IMG/VR virus record: IMGVR_UViG_3300029288_000075
Coordinates: 32,001-96,000 of that record
Strand: one strand, 5' to 3'
DNA length: 64,000 nt
Source: a virus
Lineage: Duplodnaviria; Caudoviricetes
The number at the start of each line of letters is the position of its first letter. The first letter of the stretch is position 1. The position numbers and the translations under genes are program-made. The notes beneath the pieces were generated by a model, which ran no database searches, was not told the DNA's origin, and saw only the letters and a program-made list of their open reading frames with translations. Positions 11,705 to 59,651 of this stretch are shown piece by piece.

Positions 11705-12482
11705 GTCACTGTACGCCCGAGTCCTCGAGCAAGTTCCGCGCAAAGTGCCGGAAGAGGATGACCCCACGGTTGTCGTAGAAACGGCGCAGGGTGATGAGCG
11801 CACCATAGATCCCGCCGCGATGGTGCACAGGCCTACAAAGGTGGCGGGGGTTACTCGAGATACGCTGTGGAGGTCCCCGGAGGCGCACCCAATCGTGCTG
11901 GATTTGGTGATGCTGCGAAAGTACGACTTGGCGTGGCTTGGCTATGAAATTGAGACCATTGCCAGGCTGATTCGGGAGGACTTCGGTACCCCCACCGTTG
12001 CTGATGTGAACTTGGAGAAGCTGCAAGCGTGCAAGACGCTACATCTCGTGGATGACTTCTGGTCCAGGTGGGAGGTATTTTTGCCCTGCGCGATGGCTTT
12101 CAACAGCCAGCTGGCAGACTTTCATAGCATGCAGGTACCAACTGTGGCGGAGTGCTTGGTAGCAGTGGACATAGCCAACAGGCTGCGCGATGACTGCAGC
12201 TGGAGTGCTGAGATCAAGGGCTACCTTGGCGCCGTGCACACGTTTGACAGTGAGCTTTGTCCGCAGGAGCCTTTGACCTTTGTGTCGGTGCCAACGGAGG
12301 ATCTGTCTGTGGATGTTGCTGAGGTACGCCGCAGATGGCCCATCGTGCGTGCAGCAGGGCAGATCCCTAAAGGGGACACCTTGGAAGACGAGCAGCTGCG
12401 CAAGATGCTAGGCTCTTGGGTGTACCTGGAAGCCATGCGCAGTCGGCTTCAATCTCAGCTGGTGGTTTTGAACGATGTCTGA
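11691..12482 (+). CDS. Hypothetical virion-module protein
   Basis: ATG 11691 overlaps the previous gene end. Confidence 0.7.
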   Translation: MSRFESLYARVLEQVPRKVPEEDDPTVVVETAQGDERTIDPAAMVHRPTKVAGVTRDTLWRSPEAHPIVLDLVMLRKYDLAWLGYEIETIARLIREDFGTPTVADVNLEKLQACKTLHLVDDFWSRWEVFLPCAMAFNSQLADFHSMQVPTVAECLVAVDIANRLRDDCSWSAEIKGYLGAVHTFDSELCPQEPLTFVSVPTEDLSVDVAEVRRRWPIVRAAGQIPKGDTLEDEQLRKMLGSWVYLEAMRSRLQSQLVVLNDV

Positions 12483-13641
12483 CCCCAACCCAACGCTGCT
12501 TGTACTTGCTGCTTTCGTCGATGAGCTAGCCAAGGAGGCTGCGGTGGCTGACGTCGCCCGCAGGGCGTTATCTCGAGGGGTCTTGCATGGGGTGGGCGCG
12601 GGCGCGGGTGGCGGCCTGGGTCTTGGCATAGGGGCGGGGGCGCTAGCCGGCGGGACGTTGAGCGGGGTTCAACGGTATCGTCAGGCCCGAGAGCAGGGGA
12701 ATAGCTTGGTGTCCTCGCTGGGGTCGGCTGCGGGCGGCGCGGCGCGCGGCGCGCTGCTGGGTGGTGCTGTCGGCGGCGTGGCAGGTACCGGGCTGGGTGC
12801 CGTAGCAGGGGGTGTTGCGCCTACAAAGGTGATCTCTGCCACCAAGAATTTGGCTAAAAGGCAGGATTCCGTAGGATCTTTCTCGCGGTTCGGGCAGCGG
12901 CAGGTTCACAGCCTAACCGGTTGGAAGCCAGGAGGGGCGACGTCGTCCATTGAGTCGATTGGAGCGGGCGCGGCGCCCGCCAGGGCGGCAACCGAGCAAT
13001 CCTTGGAAAAGCTGAAGTCCTCCCCCGAGATGGATGGTGTGGTGAAGGCAGTAGCTTCTGGAGATCGGAGAGCGTCCGACGTGGCTCGAGAAGCTCTTCG
13101 AAAAGGGCCCCAAGCAGAATTGACGGGTACCTTGAAGCGACTGCAAGCGTCAGAAGCCACTCAGCGGATGGGGCTCACCAGCCTTCCTGGTTACGCCAAG
13201 TCGATTCAACGGGAAGGCCTTGTGCCGACGGTGAGGGCCGGCGTGAAAGAGCAATGGCAGGCCAGTGGTCCTAAAGGCAAGGCGATGATGGTTGGCTTTC
13301 CGGCGTTGTATGCGGCACAGACGCTGAAGAGACCCGAGGGTTCGGAGCAGGGTAGGGGTGAAACCATCGGGAAGATGGTGGGTGGAACACTGGGATCCAT
13401 GGCGGCGCCCACGCCGCTGGCAGGCAGTTTAGCGCTTGGGGCTGGCTTCGAACGTGCAGGCGGGTTGGTAGGAAGAGGTGTGGACAGGCTGCGCGGTAGG
13501 CGGCCTGGGCAGGCACAGCGGCCGCAGGTGCCGCAGGAACCGTCGCGCCCGCCGGCAACTGAACCTGGTGACACAGGCCAGGCGGCTGTTGAGCGGGTGT
13601 ACGGTACCGGCTACGGTGGTGGTGCAGGAGGATTGGAGTAG
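12475..13641 (+). CDS. Glycine-zipper protein, putative internal virion/ejection protein
   Basis: AFVDELAKEAA leader followed by multiple GxxxG hydrophobic helices; directly upstream of the portal. Confidence 0.6.
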   Translation: MSDPNPTLLVLAAFVDELAKEAAVADVARRALSRGVLHGVGAGAGGGLGLGIGAGALAGGTLSGVQRYRQAREQGNSLVSSLGSAAGGAARGALLGGAVGGVAGTGLGAVAGGVAPTKVISATKNLAKRQDSVGSFSRFGQRQVHSLTGWKPGGATSSIESIGAGAAPARAATEQSLEKLKSSPEMDGVVKAVASGDRRASDVAREALRKGPQAELTGTLKRLQASEATQRMGLTSLPGYAKSIQREGLVPTVRAGVKEQWQASGPKGKAMMVGFPALYAAQTLKRPEGSEQGRGETIGKMVGGTLGSMAAPTPLAGSLALGAGFERAGGLVGRGVDRLRGRRPGQAQRPQVPQEPSRPPATEPGDTGQAAVERVYGTGYGGGAGGLE

Positions 13642-13644
13642 CCC

Positions 13645-15678
13645 ATGAGTATCCCTGGTTCGTTGATGATGGGTGGCGCCGGCAGCGGTTCTCGTTTTGT
13701 ACAGACCCGTGGGCGCATGGGAAATGGCTACAGCCAGGGGGTCAACTACCCGAGCCCGTTCTTCGACATCGCTCACACGTACTTGCCCATCACCATCAAG
13801 TCGATGCTGCGGTGGTGCCGTTACTACTTTCTGACGAATCCCATCATCAACGCCACAGTCACCAAGTTGGCGGAGTACCCCATTACGGAAATCATGATCG
13901 ACCATCCCGAGAAGCGGGTGGCGGACAAGTGGAAGGAGTACTTCGAAGACCATCTGAACTACCGCGCATTCCAGATTGAGTGTGGCCTTGACTACCATAC
14001 CTACGGGAATTGCCTGTCTAGCTTGAGCTTTCCTTTCAAGAAGTACCTGACGTGTGCTCAATGCGGGTTTCAAGCTGAAGCAAAGCGGATTCGTCCCCAT
14101 TGGGTTTTCACCAATTACGAGTACCGACTGAGTTGTCCCAAGTGCGGCAATCTAGGCACCGCTCGAGCACGTGACGTCTACCTCAAGAGCGAGGATGGTG
14201 TGCAGGTGATGCGGTGGAACCCGGAGGATGTAGAGATTACGTACTCTGCGCTCACGGGGGAGCACACGTACTTCTACAACATACCTGCGTCGGTGCGTAA
14301 CGATGTCATCATAGGTAAGAAGGACGCGGTAGAACAGGTCCCTGAGGTGTTTATTCAGGCGTTGCGCCAGCAGAAGGGTGTTGTATTTTCGAAGGACTTG
14401 TTCTTTCACCTGCGTCGGCCGACGCTGGCTGACCAGGATCGCGGGTGGGGTATTCCTCTGCTTCTTCCCTGTCTGAAAGACACGTTCTACCTGCAGATCA
14501 TGAAGAAGGCGCAAGAGGCCATTCTGCTCGAGCACATTGTTCCTCTGCGCACAATTTCTCCGCAAGCGGGCTCTGGTACCTCTGACCCGTATACCACCAT
14601 CAACCTGGTGGATTGGCGTGATCATGTAGCTACGGAAATTGCGCGTTGGCGCATGGACCCGAACTACATTCCCATCCTGCCGCTGCCCATCTCTAGCCAG
14701 ACCATTGGCGGGGATGGTCGTGCGCTTCTGTTGATCCAGGAGATGCAGGCCATCAGCGAGAACCTCATCAACGGTATGCAGGTTCCGCTCGAGTTCATCA
14801 AAGGTGGCTTGAGCTACGCCGGTACGAATGTGTCGATGCGTATGCTCGAGAACCAGTTCATCATCTACCTGTCGCGGCACAAGCGGCAAGCGCAGTGGGT
14901 GATGCGTAGCGTGGCCGACTACTTAGGGTGGCCGTTGGCTTCCATTCGTTTCAAGCCGTTCAAGATGGCCGACGACATCCAACGTAAGGCCTTCTTGTTC
15001 CAGCTCAACCAAGCCAACAAGGTCAGCGAAACGACATTGCTGGCTGATTCGGATTTGGATCAGGACCGTGAGAATCAGATCATGGAGCGCGAGACGGCGC
15101 AGCGGATCCGTGCAACGGAGAAGCAGCAGCTGGCCACGGCTGAATTGCAGGGCAGGCAGCAAGTTATCATGATGAAGATGCAGGCCAAGGCACAGCAGGA
15201 GATGCAGGCAGCCATGGCTGCCCCCAATGCCCCAGGAGAACCTGGTGGCCCTGCTAGTGGAGCAGCAGCGCCAGGAGGACAGGGCGGCGCTGACGTCATG
15301 CCCAGCAATCCAATGGCGGCTATGCAGAGTCCTCTCAACTCGACCCAGGATATGGGCTTGGGGCATAGCCAACAGCCAGGGCAACAGGCGCAGATGGGTG
15401 GCACTGATATCGTGTTGATGGCGCAGACCTACGCGCAGCAGCTATCTCAGATGAACGCTGCGCAGCAGCTGATCGCCCTCAAGAACTTGCGAACGCAGTC
15501 TCCAGAGTTGGCGGACTTGGTGATGCAGTACTTGCGCAGCATGCCGCGGTCGGTAAACGAGCCTTCTATGCCCGCTGCAAACTCTCAGATGGGGGCGGCC
15601 GGCGCCGCGGCGCAAGAAGTGGATATGACACCGCAGCCAGAGAAGCTTCCGCCAAGACGTGCGGCGGGCATGGTGTGA
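13645..15678 (+). CDS. Portal protein with Zn-ribbon insertion and Q/M/A-rich tail
   Basis: NPIINATVTKLAEYP, DYHTYGNC, FFHLRR...GWGIPLL pattern of HK97/T4-like portals; size and context. Confidence 0.75.
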   Translation: MSIPGSLMMGGAGSGSRFVQTRGRMGNGYSQGVNYPSPFFDIAHTYLPITIKSMLRWCRYYFLTNPIINATVTKLAEYPITEIMIDHPEKRVADKWKEYFEDHLNYRAFQIECGLDYHTYGNCLSSLSFPFKKYLTCAQCGFQAEAKRIRPHWVFTNYEYRLSCPKCGNLGTARARDVYLKSEDGVQVMRWNPEDVEITYSALTGEHTYFYNIPASVRNDVIIGKKDAVEQVPEVFIQALRQQKGVVFSKDLFFHLRRPTLADQDRGWGIPLLLPCLKDTFYLQIMKKAQEAILLEHIVPLRTISPQAGSGTSDPYTTINLVDWRDHVATEIARWRMDPNYIPILPLPISSQTIGGDGRALLLIQEMQAISENLINGMQVPLEFIKGGLSYAGTNVSMRMLENQFIIYLSRHKRQAQWVMRSVADYLGWPLASIRFKPFKMADDIQRKAFLFQLNQANKVSETTLLADSDLDQDRENQIMERETAQRIRATEKQQLATAELQGRQQVIMMKMQAKAQQEMQAAMAAPNAPGEPGGPASGAAAPGGQGGADVMPSNPMAAMQSPLNSTQDMGLGHSQQPGQQAQMGGTDIVLMAQTYAQQLSQMNAAQQLIALKNLRTQSPELADLVMQYLRSMPRSVNEPSMPAANSQMGAAGAAAQEVDMTPQPEKLPPRRAAGMV

Positions 15679-32872: not shown

Positions 32873-33140
32873 TCTGCATACGAACGTGCGTTCGCTGCAT
32901 GGATAGGTGCTTTACTGGCCACCTCTCTTTGCGCAGGTACATACGCATGTACTTGCTAGCTACCTTCCATATGGGAGGGGGTATTCGTTGATTCAGTCGA
33001 ATGGTTACGGCAAAGCCGCCGTCCTTCAGAGGGTCTACGGTTGCCTGTTCTCCCCAGTGGGTGTCGGCGGCACGCCGCAAAGATTCCCACAGGCAACGCA
33101 CTGCGGTGTATGGGTCGTTGGTTGGTTTGGGAGGGTACAT
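32772..33140 (-). CDS. Small basic protein, head-to-head with TerL
   Basis: ATG 33140 with AGGAGG upstream; fills the 270-bp gap before TerL. Confidence 0.55.
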   Translation of the reverse strand: MYPPKPTNDPYTAVRCLWESLRRAADTHWGEQATVDPLKDGGFAVTIRLNQRIPPPIWKVASKYMRMYLRKERWPVKHLSMQRTHVRMQINYSPPTKKRKPHQSAGQAEKRSPQQRPTRLNV

Positions 33141-38635: not shown

Positions 38636-40320
38636 TCAAGGTCAGTCTCTTCCAGGGCAGCGAGGAGTACGGACCCGCGGCTGTGCCGCTGTTTGGGCCA
38701 TCGGATAGCTACTTCGAGAAGACGGCTTCCGCTACGCTTTTGCCAGAAGTAGCTGACTACATCGCGCACTTGAAGCCGAGGAATGACTCGCAGTACGTAC
38801 TCGTCAACGCCATGGGCGCCGGTGAGTATTACGGCTCCAACGTGAACGGGGATCGCTTTGCAGAGGCTGCTTTGGTACACGCCCCTGCCCGGTGGACAGG
38901 CAAGCCTGTTCACGACATGACGGTAGGAAAGTCTTGGGCCTACGGTTACCCTACGTTCTACGGGGCACATGTTTTTCCGCATCACAAGAACAAGGATCCC
39001 AACCGGGCGCTAGGGACTGTCGAACTGGCGGCGTGGAATCCGCATATGAAGCGTGTCGAGCTCGTCACTAGGCTCGAACACAAGCTGTGCAAGGGATTTG
39101 GCGGTGAAGGGATTTGGGACAAGCTGGTAGCAGGTGAATTTCCTGATGTGAGCATGGGTACCAAGGTGCCCTTCGATACGTGCTCCATTACCTTGGATCG
39201 CGAGCTCTATCAGAAGGCGTGGGATACGTACAATCCCAGCCTGCATCGTAGTCCTGGGGATGCCATTCTTCAGTTCCATAAGAAACTGAAGGCCAAGAAC
39301 GGCGTAGGCATCCGCGGGTTGAGTATCACGCGCGTCGACTACTCAGAGTATGCGCGCCACATGATGAACCAGATCTTGCCAGATGGACGCAAGGTTTGGG
39401 TGGACAATGATTTCCCGAAGTTCTTCGACATTTCGTTTGTGTTCATGGGCGCAGACAAGATTGCCAAGGCCATGCTGAAGATTGCGGCCGGTGGCAAGCG
39501 TGTGTACTCCATCGGCTCGGCAGAGTTGGCAGACAAGCTTGCTGAGTACGACATGATTTGGATTCCAGAGCCTGCGGTCACGGAAAAGACTGCCGGCGTT
39601 TCGAGTATTGAGGACCGCCTGTTGCGGATGGCCGAGCGACGAGGAGAGACGCTCGAGCAGTCGGGAAAGAGCACGGCGAAATCCGCGATGACCAAGGAGG
39701 TCGTTCCCAACCAGCTGGCAGGGAAGGCTGTCCCCCTGCTCACGAGCCAAGAGCGAGATTTGCCGGACAAAGTGCTGGACGAGCTGGCTACTGCTGGGTT
39801 TGGGCCTGCACTTTCTACGGCAACAGGGCTAGGAATTGTGCTCAAGCCTCGCGAGTTTCAGCGTATTACCCTGATTTGCCTGGGTAATCGTGCGGCGGCA
39901 GACGGATTGGACGCGTTAGATCAGGTGTTTCCTCTGTCGTCGGAGAGGGAAGAGCTGCCTCTTGGCCTGGGTGACTTCAGTCCAGCGTTGTCCAGTATCC
40001 TGGCTCCGTTCATGGATTCTAGGTCTTCTCTTGGCCCGCACATCGAGCGGCGCGTAGTCCTTGTGGCAGGTACAACACCTTCGGGTGGTAAAAAGACAGC
40101 TTCCCATTCCTCTGAACTGCTCCGTAAGATTGGGGCTGCCTATAATGGCTATCGAGAAGGCCTCATGCAGTTTGTACCCCATGCGCAAGACTTGATGGAA
40201 GCGACGTCTACTCAAGACGGTCTGCGAAAGCTTGCCGCACTAGCTGCAGAGGAACTATTCACCCCACTGAGCTACCATTACTTGAGCACCGCGTATTTGG
40301 ACGAGGTGACACGTGGGTAG
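38632..40320 (+). CDS. Prohead maturation protease (HK97/assemblin fold)
   Basis: SNVNGDRF, His motif HVFPHH, Ser motif DVSMG, FFDISFV..GAD; position upstream of scaffold and MCP. Confidence 0.8.
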   Translation: MIKVSLFQGSEEYGPAAVPLFGPSDSYFEKTASATLLPEVADYIAHLKPRNDSQYVLVNAMGAGEYYGSNVNGDRFAEAALVHAPARWTGKPVHDMTVGKSWAYGYPTFYGAHVFPHHKNKDPNRALGTVELAAWNPHMKRVELVTRLEHKLCKGFGGEGIWDKLVAGEFPDVSMGTKVPFDTCSITLDRELYQKAWDTYNPSLHRSPGDAILQFHKKLKAKNGVGIRGLSITRVDYSEYARHMMNQILPDGRKVWVDNDFPKFFDISFVFMGADKIAKAMLKIAAGGKRVYSIGSAELADKLAEYDMIWIPEPAVTEKTAGVSSIEDRLLRMAERRGETLEQSGKSTAKSAMTKEVVPNQLAGKAVPLLTSQERDLPDKVLDELATAGFGPALSTATGLGIVLKPREFQRITLICLGNRAAADGLDALDQVFPLSSEREELPLGLGDFSPALSSILAPFMDSRSSLGPHIERRVVLVAGTTPSGGKKTASHSSELLRKIGAAYNGYREGLMQFVPHAQDLMEATSTQDGLRKLAALAAEELFTPLSYHYLSTAYLDEVTRG

Positions 40321-40413: not shown

Positions 40414-41163
40414 ATGTCCGGAATCAACGCTCTACTGAACGATGCATACGCAAAGACCGCTGCCACCGCTGAAGATCTCGAGAAGACTGCCCAGCTCGAG
40501 TACTTTGGTGCTCTCTGTGAACGGGAGAGCATCGACGTAGCCCGTCTGGATGACGAGCAAGCCATGAACCTCTTCAAGACTGCGATGGAGATGAAGGCTG
40601 CAGAAGAAGAGGCCGCCAAGGAAGAGAAGAAGGAAGAGGGCAAGGAGGGTAAGAAGGCCCCTCCATTCGGTGGTCCTGCGCATGAAGCCAAGGAAACTCC
40701 CAAAGAGGAGAAGAAGGAAGAGAAGGCCAAGGAAGCCGCCGTGCAAGAGTGGCAGTCCAAGGTTGCCGAGGCGCGATCCGCGTATGAGGCGACTGTGGCC
40801 GGCCGTCTTATGGCAGATGCGTTCATCGACCAGATGCAGAAGCGCGCTGCGGCGGGTGAGGCGGGCGCTGCTGGAGATGCGGCGCGTGCGGTCATCGAGC
40901 AGGCAAAGATTGCATCGGCTGCCCCTGCTCGGTCGGATACTCCTTCGATCGATTTCGTTGCGGGCAACCGCGCCATCGACCTTCTCAAGGAGGCCGGCTA
41001 CGACGCGGACGAGGTAGTGAGCAAGGTCAACGCCATCTACACGCTGGGGCTGCCCGCCAGTACCAAGCTTGCTTCTGTGCCAGACTTCAACAGCGCTGTA
41101 GAGATGCGTGCCCTCGAGATTTGTGAACTTGCTGGCGCGTCGGTGGATTGGAGCAAGGTCTAG
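40414..41163 (+). CDS. Scaffold-like acidic helical protein
   Basis: E/K/A-rich, 11 K-x-A sites, between protease and MCP. Confidence 0.6.
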   Translation: MSGINALLNDAYAKTAATAEDLEKTAQLEYFGALCERESIDVARLDDEQAMNLFKTAMEMKAAEEEAAKEEKKEEGKEGKKAPPFGGPAHEAKETPKEEKKEEKAKEAAVQEWQSKVAEARSAYEATVAGRLMADAFIDQMQKRAAAGEAGAAGDAARAVIEQAKIASAAPARSDTPSIDFVAGNRAIDLLKEAGYDADEVVSKVNAIYTLGLPASTKLASVPDFNSAVEMRALEICELAGASVDWSKV

Positions 41164-41211: not shown

Positions 41212-42639
41212 ATGAGGAAAGTCGCAGACGCAACATCCGTACCCTTCGCTGATTCAGCGATGGACACTGCTGCGTCAGCTCCACTCCCAGGGTTGGCGGT
41301 AGGGAACAAGCCGGCGCCCGGTCAGGTCGGTCCCAAGGGCATCTCTCCGCGCACCAACTACTCTCGCGTGAACACCGGATCTCCACAACCAGTGGATGCC
41401 GGGGTGACTTCCCAAAAGGGGGCTGCCCCGGATTCACAGAACTTTCTCCCTCCGAAGATTGCTAGTGAGGTTTACATGTCGTCTACTGCGCGTAAGACCA
41501 TTCAAGAGATGATCAAGGCCGCCGCTGAAGGTACCTTGAATCAGACTTCGGTAGCGGTGGAGGCGGAGCGTCAGCAAGGAGCACCGGTGGCGAAAGTTGC
41601 CTCGGCGGAACTCCCCATGGACGTGCCGTCTGTTCCCACTGACTACGTCCACAAGCTTGCGAACGCCTGCGATTTCATGCTGGGTGACTGGCGTGAAAAG
41701 GCAGCGGCGGAGCTCGGCCCTGGTACGGGCCCCAACGCGCTTGCGGTATCGCAGGCAACTTCCTCGAACAATGAGTTCACCTCTGGGAATCAGGGGCAGG
41801 CAACTCCGGCACACGTGCCGCCAAAGAACCCAGGCACGCAGAAGCCCTCTGAGACTCCTGCCGGCGCCTCAAACGCCCTGGAGGACAACGCGGCAATGAA
41901 GCACAAGGAGCAGCCCGTGAAGTTGGGCGGCGCTCTGCGTCCTGCCTCGTTGGCACTGACAGGAACCAAGTCGGCAGGAGTGCGCGATGCTGCTATCACT
42001 GCGCTTGGTACCGCCAAGGGGCTAGGTAAGGACTTGGCCGCGGCTCATCCGCAGGCCACAAAGGCGCTCAAAGGCGTCGGTACCGCTGCCGGTGGTGCTG
42101 CTGGCGGTGCAGCAGCAATCCATCTCCTTGGCAAAGGCAAGAAGAAGGAAGCTTCTGCTGTCCATGCGTGGCTGCTAGACTGGGATGCACGCATGTCCAA
42201 GAAGGCAGAGGACGCCATCAACCCCGCGCAGATTTCGGCAGGAGCCGCGGTTCCTCCGGAAACCAGCGCTGCGGGTGAAGCTGGTGGAGCTCCTGCCGGT
42301 GGACAGCCTCAGGGCCCCACGAGTTTGGTGGGTTCGAACGAATCGGCCATCAACTACACCAAGGGTACGGCGAAGGCACCGGTGAAGGGGCAGCTTGCCA
42401 GCTACCTTACTGAGCCAGCGCTCTCTGCCGCGCATGACAGCACGTTGGACAAGGCGTTCGATCATACCGGTCAGGCCGGTGTGAAGATCTCTTCTCTGCG
42501 GGCAGCGGCGGCACGGGCAGTTCTGAGTAAACTGTCTGCCGCGGCGTGTCCCACGGGCGAGACCAAGAAGAAGACGTCCGCGGGCATGAGCAACTTCACC
42601 GCCCCCCCAGTCTCCGGCGCCGCCGCCGGTCCTATGTAA
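41212..42639 (+). CDS. Ala/Pro/Gly-rich K-x-A segmented head protein
   Basis: Low-complexity segments delimited by KIAS, KVAS, KSAG, KEAS, KKAE. Confidence 0.65.
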   Translation: MRKVADATSVPFADSAMDTAASAPLPGLAVGNKPAPGQVGPKGISPRTNYSRVNTGSPQPVDAGVTSQKGAAPDSQNFLPPKIASEVYMSSTARKTIQEMIKAAAEGTLNQTSVAVEAERQQGAPVAKVASAELPMDVPSVPTDYVHKLANACDFMLGDWREKAAAELGPGTGPNALAVSQATSSNNEFTSGNQGQATPAHVPPKNPGTQKPSETPAGASNALEDNAAMKHKEQPVKLGGALRPASLALTGTKSAGVRDAAITALGTAKGLGKDLAAAHPQATKALKGVGTAAGGAAGGAAAIHLLGKGKKKEASAVHAWLLDWDARMSKKAEDAINPAQISAGAAVPPETSAAGEAGGAPAGGQPQGPTSLVGSNESAINYTKGTAKAPVKGQLASYLTEPALSAAHDSTLDKAFDHTGQAGVKISSLRAAAARAVLSKLSAAACPTGETKKKTSAGMSNFTAPPVSGAAAGPM

Positions 42640-43603: not shown

Positions 43604-44722
43604 ATGTCCGTTCCGGCGAGTGTACTGAACGAGCTCTTTGCTTCGAAACTCAGCACGAGTGAAGGCAAGGAAAAGATCGCCGAGTATGGTGGTAGTTACA
43701 TTCGAGACCGCCTCCGCGAGGTGAGCTTTGCCCGCAAAGTCATCCCGCCGGAGCAGGTCACGCGTGCCGACTGCCAACGCTCGGTGAACCACGACACCTT
43801 GGTCAAGATTGTCGACGTGGAGCCCAAGAGCCGCGCCATGGCAATTTCGTTCCGAGGGCAACCGACAGCCCGCTTCATTCGAGGCGAAAAGGCCGAGGTC
43901 GCATTCTTCACCATCAGTTCCGAGATGTTCCAGAAGACGGAGCAGGAGCTGTTGGCCTACGAGATGCCCATCACCAAGATCATCGAAGAGAACTCGGTGA
44001 AGGACATCCAGGAAATCGAGGACCGCGAGTTCACGATCCACGTTGAAGCCGCCGTGCAAGCGTTGCAGACGGAAGCCAATGGTGGGACTCCCACTGCGCT
44101 GCACGTCGGCACCATCGGTACTACCGTGGAGTTCTCGGTGCGCAAGGGTGAGCTTGCTCGCAACGCCGCAGCGAACACGGCGGAGGTTCTCCCGGTCAGC
44201 CGCGTGGACATCGTCGCCCTGTTCAAGATGTTGGACGGGAATCGTCTGCGGTCCGAGCGGTTGCTCATGACCGAGATGGACTGGGACGACATCTTGTCTT
44301 GGACGGTGGAAGACTTCGGTGACCGTATTCAGTCCGAAACGACTGTCGACGGCTACAAGTACAACACCATTCTTGGTCGTGCGTACATTCGCACCATCAA
44401 GACGGACATCCTGCGCCCCGGCAACATCTACACCTTCGCCAAGCCGGAGTTCTTCGGGAAGTTCTACGTCCTGAACAACACCAAGTTCTACATCGACAAG
44501 ATCGCCAACACGATCACCTTCCAGGCGTGGGAAGACATCGGTATGTCGGTCATCAACATCGCGGCGGTCCGCAAGCTCGAGCTCTACTCGGGCGATGCAA
44601 ACCCCACGACGAACGCAGACGGCCTCCTCGACAACTTCATCCCGAGGTCCGAGGACGCGCTGGGTGCGGTCAACAACCGTGTGGATGCGGGCCTCAAGTT
44701 CCCGCAGGTTTCGCAGTACTAG
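43604..44722 (+). CDS. Major capsid protein (HK97 fold)
   Basis: 372 aa, strong codon bias, IRDRLREVSFARKVIPP and KDIQEIEDREF; follows protease/scaffold/cement; downstream terminator. Confidence 0.85.
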   Translation: MSVPASVLNELFASKLSTSEGKEKIAEYGGSYIRDRLREVSFARKVIPPEQVTRADCQRSVNHDTLVKIVDVEPKSRAMAISFRGQPTARFIRGEKAEVAFFTISSEMFQKTEQELLAYEMPITKIIEENSVKDIQEIEDREFTIHVEAAVQALQTEANGGTPTALHVGTIGTTVEFSVRKGELARNAAANTAEVLPVSRVDIVALFKMLDGNRLRSERLLMTEMDWDDILSWTVEDFGDRIQSETTVDGYKYNTILGRAYIRTIKTDILRPGNIYTFAKPEFFGKFYVLNNTKFYIDKIANTITFQAWEDIGMSVINIAAVRKLELYSGDANPTTNADGLLDNFIPRSEDALGAVNNRVDAGLKFPQVSQY

Positions 44723-46588: not shown

Positions 46589-47059
46589 ATGATGAAGATC
46601 GAAAAGTACGGCACCCTGGAAGAAGCCAACTTGAAGATTCAGGGCGGCATCACGGGGGGCGTTTCTACCAGCCAGGCCTTCGTGGGACTTGTTGGTGAAA
46701 CTATCACGTTTGCTACCCCCGCCGGGTCTTGTACTTTTACGCAGCCTAGCGGTGTGGCGGGGGTACTTACGTTCAAGGACGTCAAGTCGCAGTTGGAGAC
46801 TGCTATTACGAACTTGCTGGTGAGCTCAGTGGACAACAAGCTCTGCTTCGAGCATGCGCTGGATGGTTCCTACGTGTCCCTAGCTGCAGCGACGCCGGTT
46901 GAACCGGCGCGTGCTGTACTTGGTCTTGGGCAAGGTGAGGCAATTACGGGTCGTTGCTTGAATGGCCCTAGCTCGACCGACCTTCCACGCTTTGTGGAGT
47001 TCGTGACAGAGGCGTTGTTCATTTACGTGGCTGTTGAACTACCGAATGCAGGTGCCTAA
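46589..47059 (+). CDS. Hypothetical structural protein
   Basis: GGAG RBS; composition resembles the sheath insertion domains. Confidence 0.55.
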   Translation: MMKIEKYGTLEEANLKIQGGITGGVSTSQAFVGLVGETITFATPAGSCTFTQPSGVAGVLTFKDVKSQLETAITNLLVSSVDNKLCFEHALDGSYVSLAAATPVEPARAVLGLGQGEAITGRCLNGPSSTDLPRFVEFVTEALFIYVAVELPNAGA

Positions 47060-48744
47060 TGGATGCCTTTCAAGTAGGGTTGAGTCGTGGGATCCCCGCA
47101 AAGACGGCAGCAGCCTACTTCGTGGGGTTGAAGAGCTGGCAGTCGCTTTCTCCGGAAAACGACGAGCTCATGGCAGCTTGCGTCAAAAAGGCGGCAGTAC
47201 TGACTGGTGCTTCAACGCAGCCCGGCACTTCGAAGACAGCCGCGCTACTCGAGAAATTCCGCAAGATCGCGGCAGAGGAGTCCACCCACCACGCTGGGGA
47301 GATGGCTACTCCAGCGCCTGCTGACGATGACCCCGCACAGCAGTATGCAGCAAACGAGCAGCAGGCTATGCAGGCGGAAGAGCAGAATGCGGCCGCCTAC
47401 TACCAGCAGGCTCTTCAAGGGCTGCGTGCGCAGCTGGCTGACATGCAGGAGCATTCGCAGTCCCTCGAGCAGCAGAATGCACAATTGACGGAGCAGCAAG
47501 CCGCGCACGACACTGAAGTGCAGAATGCCCAGCAGGAGGTGCAGCTGGCGCAGCAAGCGGCGCTCGAGCAAACCCAAAGTGCCGCGGCACAAGCGACTCA
47601 GTCCATGCAGCAAGCTGTGGATGCTGAGAACCGCGCCCTGCAGGCCAAGTCTCAGGAAGCGGCAGCCAAGATTCAGCAGCAGCAGGTGCGCAGTCAGCTC
47701 TTCGACCTGGCGTCCCAGGGGTTGCCCGGGTCAGAGCCCCAGATTGGAGAGGGTGCCGCGGCAGAGGGGCTACAGCCCACTCAACCAGCGGCGCAGCCGG
47801 GGGCAGAGCCGGGAGCAATGCCCGGTGAACAAGGTGCCCCTCCGGGGGCAGAGCCGGGGGCACCAGCTGCGGCCGGCGGAGAGACCCCCAGCGCTGGCAT
47901 GAATGAAGCTGGTCAACCCGCGAATGCCGAAGGAATGCCGGGTCAGGAGGCTTCAGCCGAGACGGCTGGCGCCGCGGCGCCGCCCGGATCTGTGCAACCT
48001 TCGGGTGATTCATCTGGTGGCGCCGGCGCGGGGTCGGGGACTGGTCCACAGGCGGCATCCGAGGGTGACCCTCAGAATCCCACGGCCAAACGAACAGGCC
48101 AGGTGTCCATCAAGGTAGGTGGTGCCAGTCCGGTGTCGTACGGCGACGTAGTCGCGTTCTTGGGGGGACGCCACGGCCGCCCTTTACCCGTGCAGGGTAA
48201 GGTTGCCGGTGTAGGCTCTGCCGCCAAGGAGTGGGCACTCAAGAAGGTATTGGAGTCGCCTGTAGTGAAGGAGCACGAGCAACGGCTGGTGCGTAATGCG
48301 TCACTCGCAGCAGGTGGTTCAGCGCTTGCTGGAGGGTACGCCGGGCATCGTATGGCTGCCCACAAGGATCAGAACAAGACGGCAGGTGTCCTTCAGAATC
48401 CATCGGTTGTTGGTGGACTCGCCGGTGGTGCCCTTGGATTAGGCTTGGGTGCGATGGAAGCAACGGGGCATGGCCCGGATTTGGAGAAGTTGCGCACCAA
48501 GGTCGAGGGGCAGGAAGCACAGCTGAAGCAACCTGGTCTGCGCAACTTTGGGCAGGCCTTCAACGTCGTGTACAACCGGATGCTCCTGACGCACGGAGAA
48601 GCAGTGAAGAGCCATCCCGTGTTGGGTACGTTGGCCAGCGGTGCTGCTGGTGCGGCAATGGGGGCTGAGGCAGGGCACGAATTTCCTACACTACTTCGCG
48701 AAGCGAAGGGGTGGCATGCAATGGGACGACCGCCGGTAGGCTAG
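47059..48744 (+). CDS. K-x-A segmented polyprotein-like protein (Q-rich coiled coil, P/A/G linker, Gly-zipper modules)
   Basis: Composition changes abruptly at KIAA, KVAG, KTAG. Confidence 0.65.
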   Translation: MDAFQVGLSRGIPAKTAAAYFVGLKSWQSLSPENDELMAACVKKAAVLTGASTQPGTSKTAALLEKFRKIAAEESTHHAGEMATPAPADDDPAQQYAANEQQAMQAEEQNAAAYYQQALQGLRAQLADMQEHSQSLEQQNAQLTEQQAAHDTEVQNAQQEVQLAQQAALEQTQSAAAQATQSMQQAVDAENRALQAKSQEAAAKIQQQQVRSQLFDLASQGLPGSEPQIGEGAAAEGLQPTQPAAQPGAEPGAMPGEQGAPPGAEPGAPAAAGGETPSAGMNEAGQPANAEGMPGQEASAETAGAAAPPGSVQPSGDSSGGAGAGSGTGPQAASEGDPQNPTAKRTGQVSIKVGGASPVSYGDVVAFLGGRHGRPLPVQGKVAGVGSAAKEWALKKVLESPVVKEHEQRLVRNASLAAGGSALAGGYAGHRMAAHKDQNKTAGVLQNPSVVGGLAGGALGLGLGAMEATGHGPDLEKLRTKVEGQEAQLKQPGLRNFGQAFNVVYNRMLLTHGEAVKSHPVLGTLASGAAGAAMGAEAGHEFPTLLREAKGWHAMGRPPVG

Positions 48745-48753
48745 GAGAGTGTC

Positions 48754-50580
48754 ATGTTGAACGAATACTTGCTGCGTGCATACAGGCAGACTCAAACCAA
48801 GGAGGCGAGTCGTCAGCTACAGGAGAAGCTCGCTAGGTTTCCCTTGCAAGACTTGATTGCCTTGGCGAGTGGAGATCCGACTGCGAAGTTGGCGTATTGC
48901 GATGGTCCTTGCGAGGCGAATGAGCCCAAAACTTGGTTGGACAAGTTCAAGGGATCCCCGCTGTTCGAGAAGGCAGTGTCCTTGGAGAAGACGTTGCTTG
49001 AAGCGGATGCGGCGTCTGATGCCAAGAGGTCAGAGGAGCGTGAAACCGACCGCGAGCTCGATGCGCGCCGTGACGAGCTCCGTATGCAGAAGCGGCTGCT
49101 TGACTTGGACCTTGCCCTCGAGCAGGAAGGGGCGGCGGCTCCTGCGGAAGCTGCAACGGCAGCGCCCACGGCACAGGCTGAACCGGCCCCAATAGGCGGT
49201 GGTACAGCCGTTGAGGTGAAGCAGGCTTCTTCCTCGCACAACTCCGCGCACGTGATGGAGTTCTATCGCAAGCGGGCGGAATTCTTGAAGATTGCCGGAG
49301 CCGTAGGCGCGTTCATTCCCGAGACGCGAAGTACGGGTAGGGTACCAGCGACGGATAGAGCGCAGGGCGCCGGCGCGGGCGAGTACACCGTCGACCCGTC
49401 GGAGGTAGTTACTGGCGGGTTGCAGGTGGACAAAGTGGCAGCTCTTCAGTCAGCAGACAAACCTAAGGTGGATCCGCAGGAGCTGCGGAAGAAGATCCTT
49501 CAGGAGTACCCGCACCTCGATAAGCGGGCTGATTTTGGTGGTTTTGACACGCCAGAAGAGCACCAGCAGGCGGTGGATGCGCTAAAGGCGCAGGCGGCGC
49601 AACAAGAGGCGCATCCAGTGTCTTCTCGTATTCGTTCGGGTCTTGGTACAGCGGCTGTAGGGGCACTAGGTGGATCTATGCTTGGTGGCGCAGCTTATCC
49701 TGGTGTACGGGGAACCTTGGTTGGTGCAGGTCTTGGTGCACTCGGTGCAGGTGCATACGGTGCAACTCGAGTACCAGGGGCAGAAGCTAGGCGTGAGGCG
49801 ACTGCACTGGAAGATGAAGTGCGTCCGGAGGCACTCAGGAACGAGGCTGCCGAAAACGAGAGGATTGCAGACGACGTTGATGCCAACCCCGGCAAGTACC
49901 GTTTGCGGCGAGGTATCGCAGGGGGCATTGCAGGGGGTCTAGCGGGCGCGGGTCTTGGCAGCTTGGTGCCTAGGAGCGTGGGAGCTCCGTTACTAGGTGC
50001 TGGTGTTGGTGCTCTCACCGGTGGGGGCCTTGCAGCCTTGCGTAAGCCTGACGGTGCAGCATTTCGTGAGGATGCTGCTACGATGCGAGCCCATTTGGCA
50101 AAGAAGCAGGCCAATGTGCTGGATGCCGAGGCGCGGGCGCACATCAAAAAGAAGAACTTCGCCATACCCGAAGAGAAGAAGTACCCAATCGAAAACAAGC
50201 CCCATGCTGAGAATGCGCTATCGCGGGTCGACACCTTTGGTACCTCTTCGGAAAAGTCTCGCGTGCATTCGGCAGTTGCCCGGCACTACCCCGGGTTGGC
50301 TGCGCGCTCGAGCGTTCCGGACGTGGCCTCCAAGGGCAAGGCACAGCTGCGAAAGAAGGCAATGAATCTGGGAGGGATCCTCCAGGGTGCCAAGAGCATT
50401 GGGTCCAGTGCACGGAATCTGGCTGTTACGTCCCATGCGGCGGGCGGGTTACCCCAGGTGGCCAAGTCATTTGGCAACGTAGCAAAGGGCTTCGTCATGA
50501 AAAATCCACTGGCAGCCGCCGGCGCAGCGGGTCTTGGCGGTGCAGCGTTGGGCAGGGCCACTGCCCCAAGTAGACCCTAA
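48754..50580 (+). CDS. K-x-A segmented polyprotein-like protein (coiled coil, Gly zippers, KYPIEN..HA.NAL module)
   Basis: 10 K-x-A sites bounding distinct modules. Confidence 0.65.
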   Translation: MLNEYLLRAYRQTQTKEASRQLQEKLARFPLQDLIALASGDPTAKLAYCDGPCEANEPKTWLDKFKGSPLFEKAVSLEKTLLEADAASDAKRSEERETDRELDARRDELRMQKRLLDLDLALEQEGAAAPAEAATAAPTAQAEPAPIGGGTAVEVKQASSSHNSAHVMEFYRKRAEFLKIAGAVGAFIPETRSTGRVPATDRAQGAGAGEYTVDPSEVVTGGLQVDKVAALQSADKPKVDPQELRKKILQEYPHLDKRADFGGFDTPEEHQQAVDALKAQAAQQEAHPVSSRIRSGLGTAAVGALGGSMLGGAAYPGVRGTLVGAGLGALGAGAYGATRVPGAEARREATALEDEVRPEALRNEAAENERIADDVDANPGKYRLRRGIAGGIAGGLAGAGLGSLVPRSVGAPLLGAGVGALTGGGLAALRKPDGAAFREDAATMRAHLAKKQANVLDAEARAHIKKKNFAIPEEKKYPIENKPHAENALSRVDTFGTSSEKSRVHSAVARHYPGLAARSSVPDVASKGKAQLRKKAMNLGGILQGAKSIGSSARNLAVTSHAAGGLPQVAKSFGNVAKGFVMKNPLAAAGAAGLGGAALGRATAPSRP

Positions 50581-58308: not shown

Positions 58309-58965
58309 GTGACGGGACAGCACACTCCGCCGCGGCGGACGCAGAGCAGCGACAACCTTCAGGCAGTGTCCTTGCAGGACGCTGCCGAAGCTCGTGCTCG
58401 TGCGGCTTTGCAGCTAGTGGAGGCGGAGACTGCGCGTGCCGAAGAAGCCGAGCGCCGCGCTGCGGAACTTTCGGCAGAGCTCGAACGATCGAAGGCCGCG
58501 CACACCGTAGAAACGCAGGACCACACGAAGGCGTCCCAGGATCACGCCATCACGTTGACCGCGGAAGCTCTGACAGTGCAACGCAAGGGTCGTAAGTACG
58601 TGATCCCATTCGCGTTGGTGTCGATATTGGGCCCGCTGTTGTGGGCAAGCATCGCAGACTACGTGGAGATGAAACGGCAGGCGCGAGACATGAAGGACAC
58701 CTTCGCGTCTACGACGCAGCGTATCGACAAGCTCGAGCAGAAGCTTTCTGAGCAGGCCAAGGAAAATGCAGGGTTACGAGAGACTGTGGCACAGCTGTCT
58801 GGCTATTTGGCGGGTGTACTGCCAAAGGCTGGGTTGATGGTGCCTGGGGCCATGCCCGGCGCGGCATCCATCAACGTGGTCTCAGATCCACTACCCATCG
58901 GGGCCAAGAGGATTACCCCCGTGAATGTACGAACGGCGGTGCCTGCCCCCGCGCCACGTCCTTGA
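58309..58965 (+). CDS. Single-TM coiled-coil protein (possible lysis accessory)
   Basis: One hydrophobic helix flanked by coiled coils. Confidence 0.5.
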   Translation: MTGQHTPPRRTQSSDNLQAVSLQDAAEARARAALQLVEAETARAEEAERRAAELSAELERSKAAHTVETQDHTKASQDHAITLTAEALTVQRKGRKYVIPFALVSILGPLLWASIADYVEMKRQARDMKDTFASTTQRIDKLEQKLSEQAKENAGLRETVAQLSGYLAGVLPKAGLMVPGAMPGAASINVVSDPLPIGAKRITPVNVRTAVPAPAPRP

Positions 58966-59003
58966 CTTGTCCTTTTGGGAGGGGTGCGGGTACACTCTTC
59001 GTG

Positions 59004-59651
59004 ATGTCTGTTCATCCTGCCCTGAAGACGGCCGAAGACTGGTCTCCTACTCGGTTGGGCCTGCCGCTGGCAGTTCTTGCTGGTGGAACGCTGCTGTACC
59101 ACGGGTTGCGCAAGGGTAGACAAAGCGATGCCAACGCTGACCTTGCGAGAGACCAAGCTGTACGCGACGTAGCAGCTCAGCGCAACGCCGGTGTAGTTGG
59201 TACCTTGCGTGGCGGTTCCCCCTTGAACCCCGCGGGTGCTGCCATCTACAACAACGAGAGGGCGCAAAGCGCGGACATTGGGGACACTCTCATGTTTGAC
59301 AAGGGCGCCATGGCGCAGCTTCAGCGGTCGTGCACGTTGGTGGCAAAGCATGCGGGCATTGGTGGGGCTGTATTGGGGGCGGTCAACAAGCTGCCTAATT
59401 TGCTTGGAAAACCGCTAGGCGCAGTAGGCCGCACCGCGGTGAAGGGGTTGAAGGCTGTGACACCAAGCACCGGGATGGGCACCAAGCTCATGCTGGGGGC
59501 GGGCGCTGCCGGATTGGGCTATGGGGCGTACAAAGCGGGCAAAGGTGTCTACAACTACGGTATGCAGCAGAACTCTCCCCGAGAGCTCGGCGGACATGCC
59601 GCGGCGTTGCCCACCTACACGAACCAGTTTGGCGTTCCTACGATGGGTTGA
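59004..59651 (+). CDS. K-x-A/Gly-zipper protein
   Basis: KTAE, KHAG then a cationic amphipathic segment; -10-like TACACT 7 nt before ATG. Confidence 0.65.
   Translation: MSVHPALKTAEDWSPTRLGLPLAVLAGGTLLYHGLRKGRQSDANADLARDQAVRDVAAQRNAGVVGTLRGGSPLNPAGAAIYNNERAQSADIGDTLMFDKGAMAQLQRSCTLVAKHAGIGGAVLGAVNKLPNLLGKPLGAVGRTAVKGLKAVTPSTGMGTKLMLGAGAAGLGYGAYKAGKGVYNYGMQQNSPRELGGHAAALPTYTNQFGVPTMG

What the first reader, a model, noticed from the sequence alone, without database searches (positions are those of the whole stretch)
12475..59651. Set of Gly-zipper, cationic amphipathic modules bounded by K-x-A sites
Seen: at least 8 ORFs carry modules that start right after K-x-A and read as an amphipathic basic helix plus a GxxxG hydrophobic helix. 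Examples: KKA|FGLGALTGAARSTGKAMSPAAKAFG (38045), KSA|GVRDAAITALGTAKGLGK...HLLGKGKKKEA (41212), KTA|GVLQNPSVVGGLAGGALGLGLG (47059), KKA|MNLGGILQGAKSIGSSARNL (48754), KHA|GIGGAVLGAVNKLPNLLGK (59004), KNA|AGGVVGAVKATGKG (36765), KEA|AVADVARRALSRGVLHGVGAGAGGGLG (12475). Known: Gly zippers mediate membrane helix oligomers, and these segments resemble bacteriocin or antimicrobial peptide composition. Inference: latent membrane-active peptides are activated by head maturation and ejected to build a DNA/RNAP entry channel or a membrane compartment around the incoming genome.
Basis: partly seen in the sequence, partly recalled or inferred. Interest (0 to 1): 0.85.

Follow-up and report, generated by a model that had tools for sequence, protein, structure and literature searches.

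The report
Glycine-rich helices in phage head cargo
Several head proteins of a 188-kb uncultivated phage carry conserved glycine/alanine-rich, weakly hydrophobic helices near a probable maturation-protease cut site (K-x-A); these helices may help ejected proteins enter the host membrane, but this is untested.

Summary
The window is part of a 187,857-bp phage record. The phage is a distant relative of Salmonella myovirus Arash and encodes a fused beta-beta' RNA polymerase. All eight quoted peptides exist, in 7 ORFs rather than 8.

K-x-A is a real signal:
- It is the most over-represented X-x-Y pattern in head genes (85 seen, 48 expected).
- It is kept in homologues far more often than ten control patterns (0.64 against 0.22-0.34).
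- It lies next to a protein whose model matches the T4 gp21 prohead protease (Z 8.9).

The Gly-rich helices are also real. They show GxxxG periodicity in three families (12475, 47059, 48754). They persist in a 44.5% GC Vibrio phage and in Arash.

The claim that the modules are "bounded by K-x-A" is not a general rule. Within this genome, Gly segments lie no closer to K-x-A than chance predicts (P about 0.56). The leader / K-x-A / Gly-rich helix layout is conserved in the 38045 family (134 of 146 distant representatives), in 12475, 47059 and probably 58962. It is not conserved in 41212, in the 48754 C-terminus, or clearly in 36765.

Hydrophobicity falls below classical transmembrane thresholds. 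A role in membrane insertion after ejection is plausible by analogy with P22 gp7 but unproven. The scan also noted K-x-A in another genome.

The parts
12475..13641 (+). ORF 12475 (388 aa), immediately upstream of the portal gene. It has an N-terminal leader ending in K20-E-A, then a hairpin of two glycine-zipper helices (aa 35-66 and 92-117, nt 12577-12825).
   Evidence: The K-x-A is kept in 31/39 homologues. A Gly-rich uncharged segment is present in 32-34/39 and the hairpin is absent in about 7. Gly-Gly i+4 spacing is 346 against 207 expected. The Atlas structure lead points to YMGG-type Gly-zipper clusters, at low confidence.
13645..15678 (+). Portal protein
   Evidence: 29% identity, E 2e-86, to Arash Gp204, which is annotated as portal.
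36765..38039 (+). ORF 36765 (424 aa) with 11 K-x-A sites, 8 of them conserved and spaced about 25-60 aa apart, so it looks like a degraded scaffold or core protein. The quoted module follows K326 (nt 37749-37940).
   Evidence: K-x-A count is 11 against 2.9 expected. Conservation is 17-25 of 25 for eight sites. The Gly-rich character of the module is conserved in only 5-9 of 25 homologues. Arash gp220 and D69 0268 have the same pattern.
38045..38635 (+). ORF 38045 (196 aa). It has a 13-aa leader ending in K11-K-A (nt 38045-38083), a G/F-rich stretch and a weakly basic linker, a Gly/Ala-rich hydrophobic helix (aa 36-58), then a conserved helical domain of no known fold.
   Evidence: The family has 1661 clusters (50% identity) at E<=1e-3. 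A K-x-A lies in the first 45 aa in 134/146 representatives against 52 expected, at median position 13. Positions P1'-P12' are enriched in G and F. The AF2 model has a long helix at 46-76 and a bundle at 79-121 with pLDDT >90. Gene-order counterparts with the same layout by eye (no score): Arash gp221 and D69 0269.
38632..40320 (+). Probable prohead protease (562 aa). The N-terminal domain (aa 47-273) has the T4 gp21 / herpes assemblin fold. It is flanked and cut through by its own K-x-A sites.
   Evidence: VIA-align against 5jbl_B gives Z 8.9, rmsd 2.8 A, 131 aa aligned. The next hits are herpes proteases at Z about 6. H118 and S174 are invariant in 24 sequences. K30 is kept in 39/39 homologues. 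Six of its 8 K-x-A sites fall in segments with pLDDT <50.
40414..41163 (+). Acidic coiled-coil scaffold-like protein with 11 K-x-A sites
   Evidence: Arash gp223 and D69 0271 are equivalent.
41212..42639 (+). ORF 41212 (475 aa). The quoted module is aa 256-314 (nt 41977-42153), between K253 and K312.
   Evidence: The module lies in a hypervariable linker. K253 is kept in 2/20 homologues, K312 in 11/20, and a Gly-rich segment is present in 6/20.
43604..44722 (+). Major capsid protein with a K24-I-A site near the N-terminus
   Evidence: 29% identity to the Arash MCP; phrog_2522. The K-x-A is kept in 39/39 homologues.
47059..48744 (+). ORF 47059 (561 aa). It has an N-terminal leader with K15-T-A, a Q/A-rich coiled coil, a P/G/A-rich region, and a C-terminal glycine zipper after K440 (nt 48385-48456).
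   Evidence: A K-x-A lies a few residues before the same zipper in L003, L007, L004 and L031. The C-terminal part is a separate ORF in L002, L004 and L014. The i+4 Gly spacing is 2.0x. There is a sub-threshold Pfam match to Rick_17kDa_Anti (E 0.009).
48754..50580 (+). ORF 48754 (608 aa). It has a leader with K16-E-A, two glycine-zipper hairpins (aa 295-338, nt 49636-49767; aa 387-429, nt 49912-50040), and the quoted C-terminal module after K534 (nt 50362-50553).
   Evidence: The hairpins are kept in 8-9/10 homologues, but K534 in 0/10. The i+4 spacing is 1.6x. Sub-threshold Pfam matches: Gly-zipper_YMGG (E 0.008), Rick_17kDa_Anti (E 0.08), Gly-zipper_Omp (E 0.098), and the P22_gp7 C-terminus (E 1.7).
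58962..59651 (+). ORF 58962 (about 215-229 aa) in the tail-proximal block, with three Gly-rich helices. The quoted module follows K-H-A at nt 59346.
   Evidence: The K-x-A and both Gly-rich segments are kept in 5/5 homologues, which are all close relatives.

Best explanation
The modules are Gly/Ala-rich, marginally hydrophobic helices built into proteins that are packaged in the head of an Arash-like contractile-tailed phage that encodes its own RNA polymerase. In three families they are true GxxxG glycine zippers, often paired as hairpins.

Proposed mechanism:
1. The precursors carry a short N-terminal leader ending in phi-x-K-x-A|(S/A/G).
2. A T4 gp21 / assemblin-like prohead protease (ORF 38632) cuts after the Ala.
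3. Proteins with many sites (36765, the scaffold 40414) are diced. Proteins with a single N-terminal site (12475, 38045) keep a large mature body whose new N-terminal region carries the Gly-rich helix.
4. The low hydrophobicity keeps these proteins soluble during assembly.
5. After ejection the helices pack through their small-residue faces and insert into the host envelope. This would help the DNA and any packaged proteins (RNA polymerase was detected in virion preparations of the relative Arash) cross it, as the C-terminal hairpin of P22 gp7 does.

Shown here: the motifs, their conservation, the periodicity and the protease fold. Inferred: cleavage at K-x-A, packaging, ejection and membrane insertion.
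For: K-x-A signal:
- Enrichment is confined to head ORFs.
- The extended motif has a hydrophobic P5, T/I/V/E at P2 and S/A/E at P1'.
- Conservation is 0.64 against 0.22-0.34 for control patterns. The capsid protein and protease sites are kept in 39/39 homologues.

Protease:
- The fold match to T4 gp21 is Z 8.9, followed by herpes proteases.
- Herpes assemblins cut after Ala before Ser/Thr (PMC4498786).
- K-x-A sites fall in low-pLDDT linkers of the protease model.

Gly-rich helices:
- Gly i+4/i+8 periodicity is present in three families.
- Modules are kept in 32-34/39 (12475), 21/22 (38045) and 8-9/10 (48754) homologues.
- The 38045 layout is kept in 134/146 representatives that are at most 50% identical to each other.
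- The same gene block, with K-x-A sites and Gly-rich helices, is present in Vibrio phage D69 at 44.5% GC and in Arash. This argues against a composition artefact.

Virion and precedent:
- Arash gp220-gp224 and both RNAP subunits were detected by mass spectrometry of virion preparations (PMC10585845).
- There are weak matches to the Gly-zipper families and to the membrane hairpin of P22 gp7.
- That hairpin sits in the outer membrane during infection (bioRxiv 10.64898/2026.09.03.749273).
Against: - No module reaches Kyte-Doolittle 1.6 over 19 residues; the values are 1.0-1.55.
- A crude translocon-scale sum, using scale values recalled from memory, gives +3.4 to +6.8 kcal/mol. Clear TM ORFs of the same genome give -2.5 to -3.4.
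- No Pfam, NCBIfam or PHROG family is reached at threshold.
- The 12475 hairpin is missing in about 7 of 39 homologues. The 41212 module lies in a hypervariable linker.
- The 38045 helix has no GxxxG periodicity, and its linker is only +1 at family level.
- The Arash virion list holds 116 proteins, including metabolic enzymes and the scaffold, so presence on it is weak evidence for packaging.
- Nothing here shows cleavage, ejection or lipid binding.
- The RNA polymerase has no conserved K-x-A leader.
Confidence: 0.4

Rival explanations
1. Assembly role. The helices are packing elements of prohead core or scaffold-accessory proteins. They bundle the core around the portal, or tether early assembly to the inner membrane. 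They play no part in infection, and cleavage at K-x-A simply dismantles or frees the core.
For: - The gene order is 36765, 38045, protease, scaffold, 41212, 43036, capsid protein. This resembles the T4 order of genes 67, 68, 21, 22, 23 (own knowledge).
- The protease has the gp21 fold.
- 36765 and 40414 carry 11 sites each, as degraded scaffolds would.
- 12475 abuts the portal gene.
- GxxxG also drives packing of soluble helices (own knowledge).
Against: - 12475 and 38045 have a single N-terminal site. This leaves a large mature protein, the pattern of packaged cargo rather than of a degraded scaffold.
- Homologues were detected in Arash virion preparations.
- The 2-helix zipper hairpins most resemble membrane-embedded domains.
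Confidence: 0.25
2. No shared function. The modules are Gly/Ala-rich low-complexity linkers or flexible spacers, partly there to keep cleavage sites accessible. Their position next to K-x-A is a by-product of the high density of K-x-A in these proteins.
For: - Gly segments are no closer to K-x-A than chance (P 0.56-0.74).
- Gly is not enriched downstream of K-x-A overall.
- The 41212 module is hypervariable, the K534 site of 48754 is kept in 0/10 homologues, and the Gly character of the 36765 module is kept in 5-9/25.
- The hairpin is dispensable in about 7/39 homologues of 12475.
- The AF2 model gives pLDDT <50 for aa 34-50 of 38045.
Against: - i+4/i+8 Gly periodicity is not expected of disordered linkers.
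- Uncharged 16-40-residue cores are kept across families that share about 30% identity, and at 44.5% GC.
- The 38045 layout holds in 134/146 distant representatives.
Confidence: 0.2
3. DNA-facing internal peptides. The cationic Gly-rich segments, freed by cleavage, neutralise or organise the packaged DNA, as basic internal proteins do in T4 or adenovirus.
For: - Net charge is +4 to +8 for six of the seven regions analysed (0 for the 47059 module) in this genome.
- Arash gp224 and D69 0272 are small, very basic, Gly-rich proteins located between the scaffold and capsid genes.
- A further Gly-rich basic protein with a K-E-A leader lies at genome 121202-122068.
Against: - The family-level charge of the 38045 linker is only +1, and the 47059 module is neutral.
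- The long uncharged hydrophobic cores with zipper periodicity have no obvious use in DNA binding.
Confidence: 0.1

Closest known systems
T4 internal proteins / Alt with a capsid-targeting leader cut by gp21, and the SPN3US / phiKZ ejection proteins cut by gp245 / gp175
   Same: Many head proteins share one short cleavage motif. Scaffold-like proteins carry many sites. Cargo proteins carry one site behind a short N-terminal leader. The protease has the gp21 / assemblin fold. SPN3US heads carry a mass of ejection proteins processed by gp245 (PMC7411985, PMC10052503).
   Different: Here the motif is K-x-A with the cut inferred after Ala. In T4 and phiKZ the cut is after Glu in (L/I)-x-E or (S/A/G)-x-E (own knowledge). 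No Gly-zipper helices are described for those cargo proteins, as far as I know. Cleavage here is inferred, not measured.
P22 ejection protein gp7
   Same: It is a packaged protein that loses an N-terminal leader (the processed form is written gp7*). It carries a C-terminal V-shaped two-helix hairpin that inserts into the outer membrane and forms a pore with gp20 (bioRxiv 10.64898/2026.09.03.749273). The second hairpin of ORF 48754 gives a faint match to exactly that part of the Pfam model.
   Different: The match is not significant (8.9 bits against a cutoff of 28). P22 is a podovirus without a tail tube or tape measure. There is no homology elsewhere in the proteins.
Bacterial glycine-zipper domains (PF05433 Glycine zipper 2TM / SlyB, PF13441 YMGG, PF13488)
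   Same: Both have two short helices with GxxxGxxxG spacing joined by a short loop. SlyB and YfgH are membrane-embedded outer-membrane lipoproteins of this type (abstracts). The Atlas structure leads for ORF 12475 point to YMGG clusters.
   Different: Scores are below the gathering thresholds (13-16 bits against 24-29). The phage proteins have no lipobox or signal peptide. They are cytoplasmic, phage-encoded and probably packaged.
Herpesvirus assemblin
   Same: The fold class is the same as the ORF 38632 domain (Z 5-6). Assemblin cuts after Ala before Ser/Thr and processes itself at release and maturation sites (PMC4498786). The extended motif here also has Ala at P1 and Ser/Ala at P1'.
   Different: An invariant Lys at P3 is not part of the herpes consensus. 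The phage enzyme is closest to T4 gp21, which cuts after Glu.
Maturation-activated membrane peptides of animal viruses (adenovirus protein VI, nodavirus gamma peptide, Gly-rich fusion peptides of HIV gp41 and influenza HA2)
   Same: The principle is shared. A protease cut creates or frees a Gly/Ala-rich amphipathic or hydrophobic N-terminal segment that later attacks a membrane (own knowledge, not tested here).
   Different: There is no sequence or structural relationship. No membrane activity has been shown for the phage segments.

Membership tests
Glycine zipper 2TM / YMGG / Gly-zipper_Omp (PF05433, PF13441, PF13488) | Score at or above the Pfam gathering threshold | tested here: not met
   The best scores are 16.2-16.4 bits (E 0.008-0.009) against cutoffs of 24.2-28.9, for ORF 48754 aa 285-435 and ORF 47059 aa 405-470. 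The 12475, 38045 and 58962 segments gave no hit.
Glycine zipper 2TM / YMGG / Gly-zipper_Omp (PF05433, PF13441, PF13488) | GxxxG(xxxG) periodicity on a helix of about 20 uncharged residues, often as a two-helix hairpin | tested here: met
   i+4 and i+8 Gly spacing is enriched 1.4-2.0x over shuffles in the 12475, 48754 and 47059 families. It is not met for 38045 (0.67x) or 29020.
Classical transmembrane helix | Hydropathy above the usual threshold (Kyte-Doolittle 19-mer >= 1.6) | tested here: not met
   The maxima are 1.0-1.55 for all modules. The 38045 family has a median of 1.43, with 22/146 at >= 1.6. No dedicated TM predictor was available.
P22 gp7 ejection protein (PF25688) | Pfam gathering threshold | tested here: not met
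   8.9 bits against 28, covering only model positions 184-226.
Protease-processed head cargo (T4 IP/Alt type) | Short N-terminal leader ending in the phage's own cleavage consensus | tested here: met
   A K-x-A lies within the first 30 aa of 12475, 29020, 38045, 38632, 40414, 43604, 47059 and 48754. It is conserved in homologues.
Protease-processed head cargo (T4 IP/Alt type) | Actual cleavage at the site and presence of the mature form in virions | not testable with these tools
   The only indirect evidence is that Arash gp220-gp224 are listed in the virion proteome. The supplement holds no peptide-level data.
T4 gp21 / herpes assemblin prohead protease (for ORF 38632) | Assemblin fold with conserved Ser and His | tested here: met
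   Z 8.9, rmsd 2.8 A and 131 aa aligned against 5jbl_B, standing above the next rows at Z about 6. H118 and S174 are invariant in 24 sequences. There was no sequence-level match in Pfam or the PDB, and catalytic residues were not superposed.
Bacteriocin / antimicrobial peptide families | Match to a known bacteriocin family or a double-glycine leader | tested here: not met
   No such family appeared in the Pfam or NCBIfam scans. The resemblance is in composition only.

The most novel reading that the evidence does not exclude
A very large uncultivated clade of contractile-tailed phages related to Arash, which packages RNA polymerase, may use a K-x-A-specific gp21-like protease to arm packaged proteins. 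The 38045 family alone has 1661 clusters at 50% identity. The Gly/Ala-rich helices of these proteins would stay soluble in the capsid. After ejection they would oligomerise in the host inner membrane and form the conduit, or a lipid-bounded early compartment, through which the genome and the RNA polymerase enter. This would be a myovirus counterpart of the podovirus ejectosome.
Probability: 0.25. Interest if true: 0.8.

Novelty: new variant of a known kind. Interest (0 to 1): 0.55.

Why it matters
How large contractile-tailed phages move DNA, and in some clades a whole packaged RNA polymerase, across the inner membrane is poorly understood. If these helices are the membrane-inserting parts of ejected proteins, they give concrete candidates to test. 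Salmonella phage Arash is a cultured model that carries the same gene block.

Even under the most sober reading, the analysis makes three contributions:
- It defines a large unannotated protein family (38045 type, no Pfam or PHROG match, no known fold) with a fixed leader / K-x-A / hydrophobic-helix layout.
- It separates the conserved modules from the incidental ones.
- It shows that the rule 'bounded by K-x-A' is not general.

Tried and rejected
- Pfam, PHROGs and NCBIfam scans of all module ORFs and most neighbours gave no family at threshold.
- Profile searches of the PDB with the protease alignment and the 38045 alignment found nothing.
- Fold searches of the 38045 model found only one uncharacterised phage protein in BFVD. 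The wide PDB search gave a best Z of 5.0, which is not meaningful.
- The 'atlas' fold library was not available.
- Oligomer modelling of the 38045 helix (complex prediction) was not available.
- I tested whether Gly segments follow K-x-A more often than chance within the genome. They do not.
- I tested whether the RNA polymerase carries a K-x-A leader, which would tie it to the same cargo system. Its N-terminus is conserved, but the Lys is specific to this genome and no K-x-A is conserved.
- I looked in the Arash paper's supplement for peptide-level mass-spectrometry data that could show cleavage. It holds only the annotation table.
- The bacteriocin/AMP reading has no support beyond composition, so I rejected it.
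- The idea that the Gly richness is a GC-content artefact is contradicted by the 44.5% GC relative, so I rejected it.


Full report
WHAT THE WINDOW IS

The window is bases 32001-96000 of a 187,857-bp IMG/VR phage record rated 99% complete. The identified genes are:
- a major capsid protein at 43604-44722, 29% identical to that of Salmonella myovirus Arash and matching phrog_2522;
- a fused beta-beta' multisubunit RNA polymerase at 20188-26583, and a large terminase at 33041-34987;
- a portal at 13645-15678, E 2e-86 to Arash Gp204.

Most other structural ORFs match no Pfam, PHROG or NCBIfam family. The clade is large. 62 related loci were found through ORF 38632. 168 stretches encoding portal relatives were confirmed, of which the best 80 were kept. 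Many lie on 170-195-kb contigs.

THE OBSERVATION

All eight peptides exist on the + strand. They lie in seven ORFs (12475, 36765, 38045, 41212 twice, 47059, 48754, 58962). The coordinates in the finding are ORF starts.

The composition is as described:
- G is 18-29% and A is 10-35%.
- Net charge is +4 to +8, except the 47059 module at 0.
- Each module has an uncharged Gly/Ala-rich core in the top 0.1-3% of the proteome on the Eisenberg scale.
- Helical moments are moderately high.

K-x-A IS A REAL SIGNAL

- Among all 400 X-x-Y patterns, K-x-A is the most over-represented in the head-module ORFs (85 against 47.7 expected, z 5.4). It is not enriched in the rest of the genome (229 against 213).
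- The excess is concentrated in 29020 (16 against 3.7), 10265 (12 against 3.1) and 36765 (11 against 2.9).
- The context is a hydrophobic residue at P5, Lys at P3, T/I/V/E at P2, Ala at P1 and S/A/E at P1'.
- In alignments with homologues down to about 30% identity, K-x-A sites are retained within 4 columns in 64% of homologues on average. Ten control patterns give 22-34%. 27 of 77 sites are kept in at least 80% of homologues.
- The capsid-protein site and the first site of ORF 38632 are kept in 39/39 homologues.

THE NEIGHBOURING PROTEASE

ORF 38632 gave no sequence-level hit. An AlphaFold2 model built from 24 sequences (pLDDT 73.6) aligns to the T4 gp21 prohead protease with Z 8.9, rmsd 2.8 A over 131 residues. 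Herpes assemblins follow at Z about 6. His118 and Ser174 are invariant. Six of its eight K-x-A sites fall in the segments modelled below pLDDT 50. Herpes assemblins cut after Ala before Ser/Thr (PMC4498786). I therefore read K-x-A as the probable cleavage motif of this protease. This is an inference, because no cleavage data exist.

THE GLY-RICH MODULES, FAMILY BY FAMILY

- 12475 family. A conserved leader ends in K-x-A (31/39). It is followed by two zipper helices joined by a conserved basic loop. Gly-rich uncharged segments occur in 32-34 of 39 homologues, and the whole hairpin is absent in about seven. Gly-Gly spacing shows clear i+4 and i+8 excess (346 against 207, and 255 against 161).
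- 48754 family. There are two such hairpins (kept in 8-9/10 homologues, 1.6x periodicity). The quoted C-terminal K-x-A is kept in 0/10.
- 47059 family. A K-x-A lies a few residues before a zipper in all four informative relatives. In three relatives this C-terminal piece is a separate ORF.
- 38045 family. This is the best documented.
  - A profile search found 1661 clusters at 50% identity.
  - 134 of 146 full-length representatives have K-x-A in the first 45 residues (52 expected by shuffling), at median position 13. P1'-P12' is enriched in Gly (0.20 against 0.10) and Phe (0.09 against 0.04).
  - A linker of about 22 residues follows, then a Gly/Ala-rich helix with a median Kyte-Doolittle maximum of 1.43.
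  - This helix has no GxxxG periodicity (0.67x), and the linker is only +1 at family level.
  - The model shows a long helix (46-76) leading into a confident helical bundle of no recognisable fold.
- 58962. The site and both Gly-rich helices are conserved, but only five close relatives were available.
- 41212. The module lies in a hypervariable linker (K253 kept in 2/20, Gly-rich segment in 6/20).
- 36765. The K-x-A is fairly conserved (17/25) but the Gly character is not (5-9/25).

IS 'BOUNDED BY K-x-A' A RULE?

It is not, within this genome. Of 12 strictly defined Gly segments in head-module ORFs, 4 have a K-x-A within 30 residues upstream, against 3.8 expected (P 0.56). One has a K-x-A within 5 residues, against 1.2 expected. 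Gly is not enriched downstream of K-x-A in general. The association is a conserved architecture only in particular families: 38045 (16/18 against 3.9 expected) and 12475 (30/82 against 10.4).

In these two families a single N-terminal cut would leave a large mature protein of 183 or 366 residues, with the helix near its new N-terminus. It would not release a free peptide.

ARE THE HELICES MEMBRANE HELICES?

- None reaches the Kyte-Doolittle threshold of 1.6.
- A crude translocon-scale sum, with scale values recalled from memory, gives +3.4 to +6.8 kcal/mol. Obvious TM ORFs of the same genome give -2.5 to -3.4.
- Pfam gives only sub-threshold matches: Gly-zipper_YMGG, the Glycine zipper 2TM domain, Gly-zipper_Omp and, faintly, the C-terminal hairpin of P22 gp7.
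- The Atlas structure search for ORF 12475 points to YMGG-type clusters at low confidence.

They are best called marginally hydrophobic zipper helices. This is compatible with proteins that must stay soluble to be packaged and could insert later as oligomers. It is equally compatible with soluble helix packing.

RELATIVES, INCLUDING CULTURED PHAGES

Arash (53% GC) and Vibrio phage D69 (44.5% GC) have the same block upstream of the capsid gene:
- a multi-K-x-A protein (gp220 / 0268);
- a small protein with a leader, a K-x-A and a Gly-rich hydrophobic helix (gp221 / 0269), which by position and layout is the counterpart of the 38045 family;
- the protease (gp222 / 0270);
- a multi-K-x-A scaffold (gp223 / 0271);
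- a small, very basic Gly-rich protein (gp224 / 0272).

Persistence at 44.5% GC argues against a composition artefact. Arash Gp220-Gp224 and both RNA polymerase subunits were detected by mass spectrometry of virion preparations (PMC10585845). That list holds 116 proteins, including metabolic enzymes and the scaffold, so it is weak evidence. No peptide-level data are available.

MECHANISM AND RIVALS

My best reading (0.4) is that these are protease-processed, packaged head proteins. Their Gly/Ala-rich helices would act after ejection as membrane-inserting, self-associating elements. The mechanistic precedent is P22 gp7: its processed form (written gp7*, i.e. shorn of an N-terminal leader; own knowledge) places a two-helix hairpin in the outer membrane.

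The rivals are:
- an assembly role in the prohead core (0.25), favoured by the T4-like gene order and the gp21-like protease;
- incidental low-complexity linkers (0.2), favoured by the chance-level association and by the non-conserved modules;
- DNA-facing basic peptides (0.1).

The experiment that separates the first two is a knockout of Arash gp221: DNA-filled non-infectious particles against aberrant heads.

COMPARISON AND NOVELTY

The system works like the T4 and SPN3US/phiKZ scheme of motif-directed head-protein processing, but with a different motif that is Ala-specific at P1, as in assemblins. The modules work, at most, like the membrane hairpins of podovirus ejection proteins or bacterial 2TM glycine zippers. 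They are not members of any of those families by the tests run.

I rate the finding as a new variant of a known kind. Sibling notes of this scan flagged the K-x-A motif in this genome and in one other genome. I tested that motif independently here.

Noticed in passing
window 28486-29007, 35030-35671, 52808-53332: Three HNH endonuclease ORFs are inserted in the structural operon. Two match Pfam HNH_3 above threshold. The third matches HNH_5/HNH below threshold.
   Followed up: partly
window 20188-20340 and loci L074-L153: The N-terminus of the fused RNA polymerase (x-L-D/N-P-x-E-A-F...) resembles the leader of the 38045 family, but it has no conserved K-x-A. The Lys in this genome is Arg or absent in relatives.
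   Followed up: partly
L002:20428-20724, L004:19752-20138, L014:20370-20705: In three close relatives, the C-terminal glycine-zipper part of the 47059 protein is a separate small ORF. This could be a real split gene, a frameshift or an assembly error.
   Followed up: no
own genome G000:C1:121202-122068 (outside the window): A 288-aa Gly/Ala-rich basic protein has an N-terminal leader ending in K-E-A followed at once by a Gly-rich stretch. It is one more member of the same kind. The sigma-like ORF at genome 125585-126340 also starts with a 38045-like leader and K-T-A.
   Followed up: partly
window 27848-28489: A 213-aa, very hydrophobic protein follows directly after ORF 26583-27848 and has several segments above Kyte-Doolittle 1.6. 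It matches no family.
   Followed up: no
window 48754-50580, aa 456-502: A short conserved stretch matches phrog_16160 (E 7e-8) and, below threshold, Pfam DUF6582. It lies between the zipper hairpins and the C-terminal module, and its function is unknown.
   Followed up: no
window 36765-38039: Eight conserved K-x-A sites spaced about 25-60 residues apart would dice this protein into small peptides. Arash gp220 and D69 0268 show the same spacing.
   Followed up: partly
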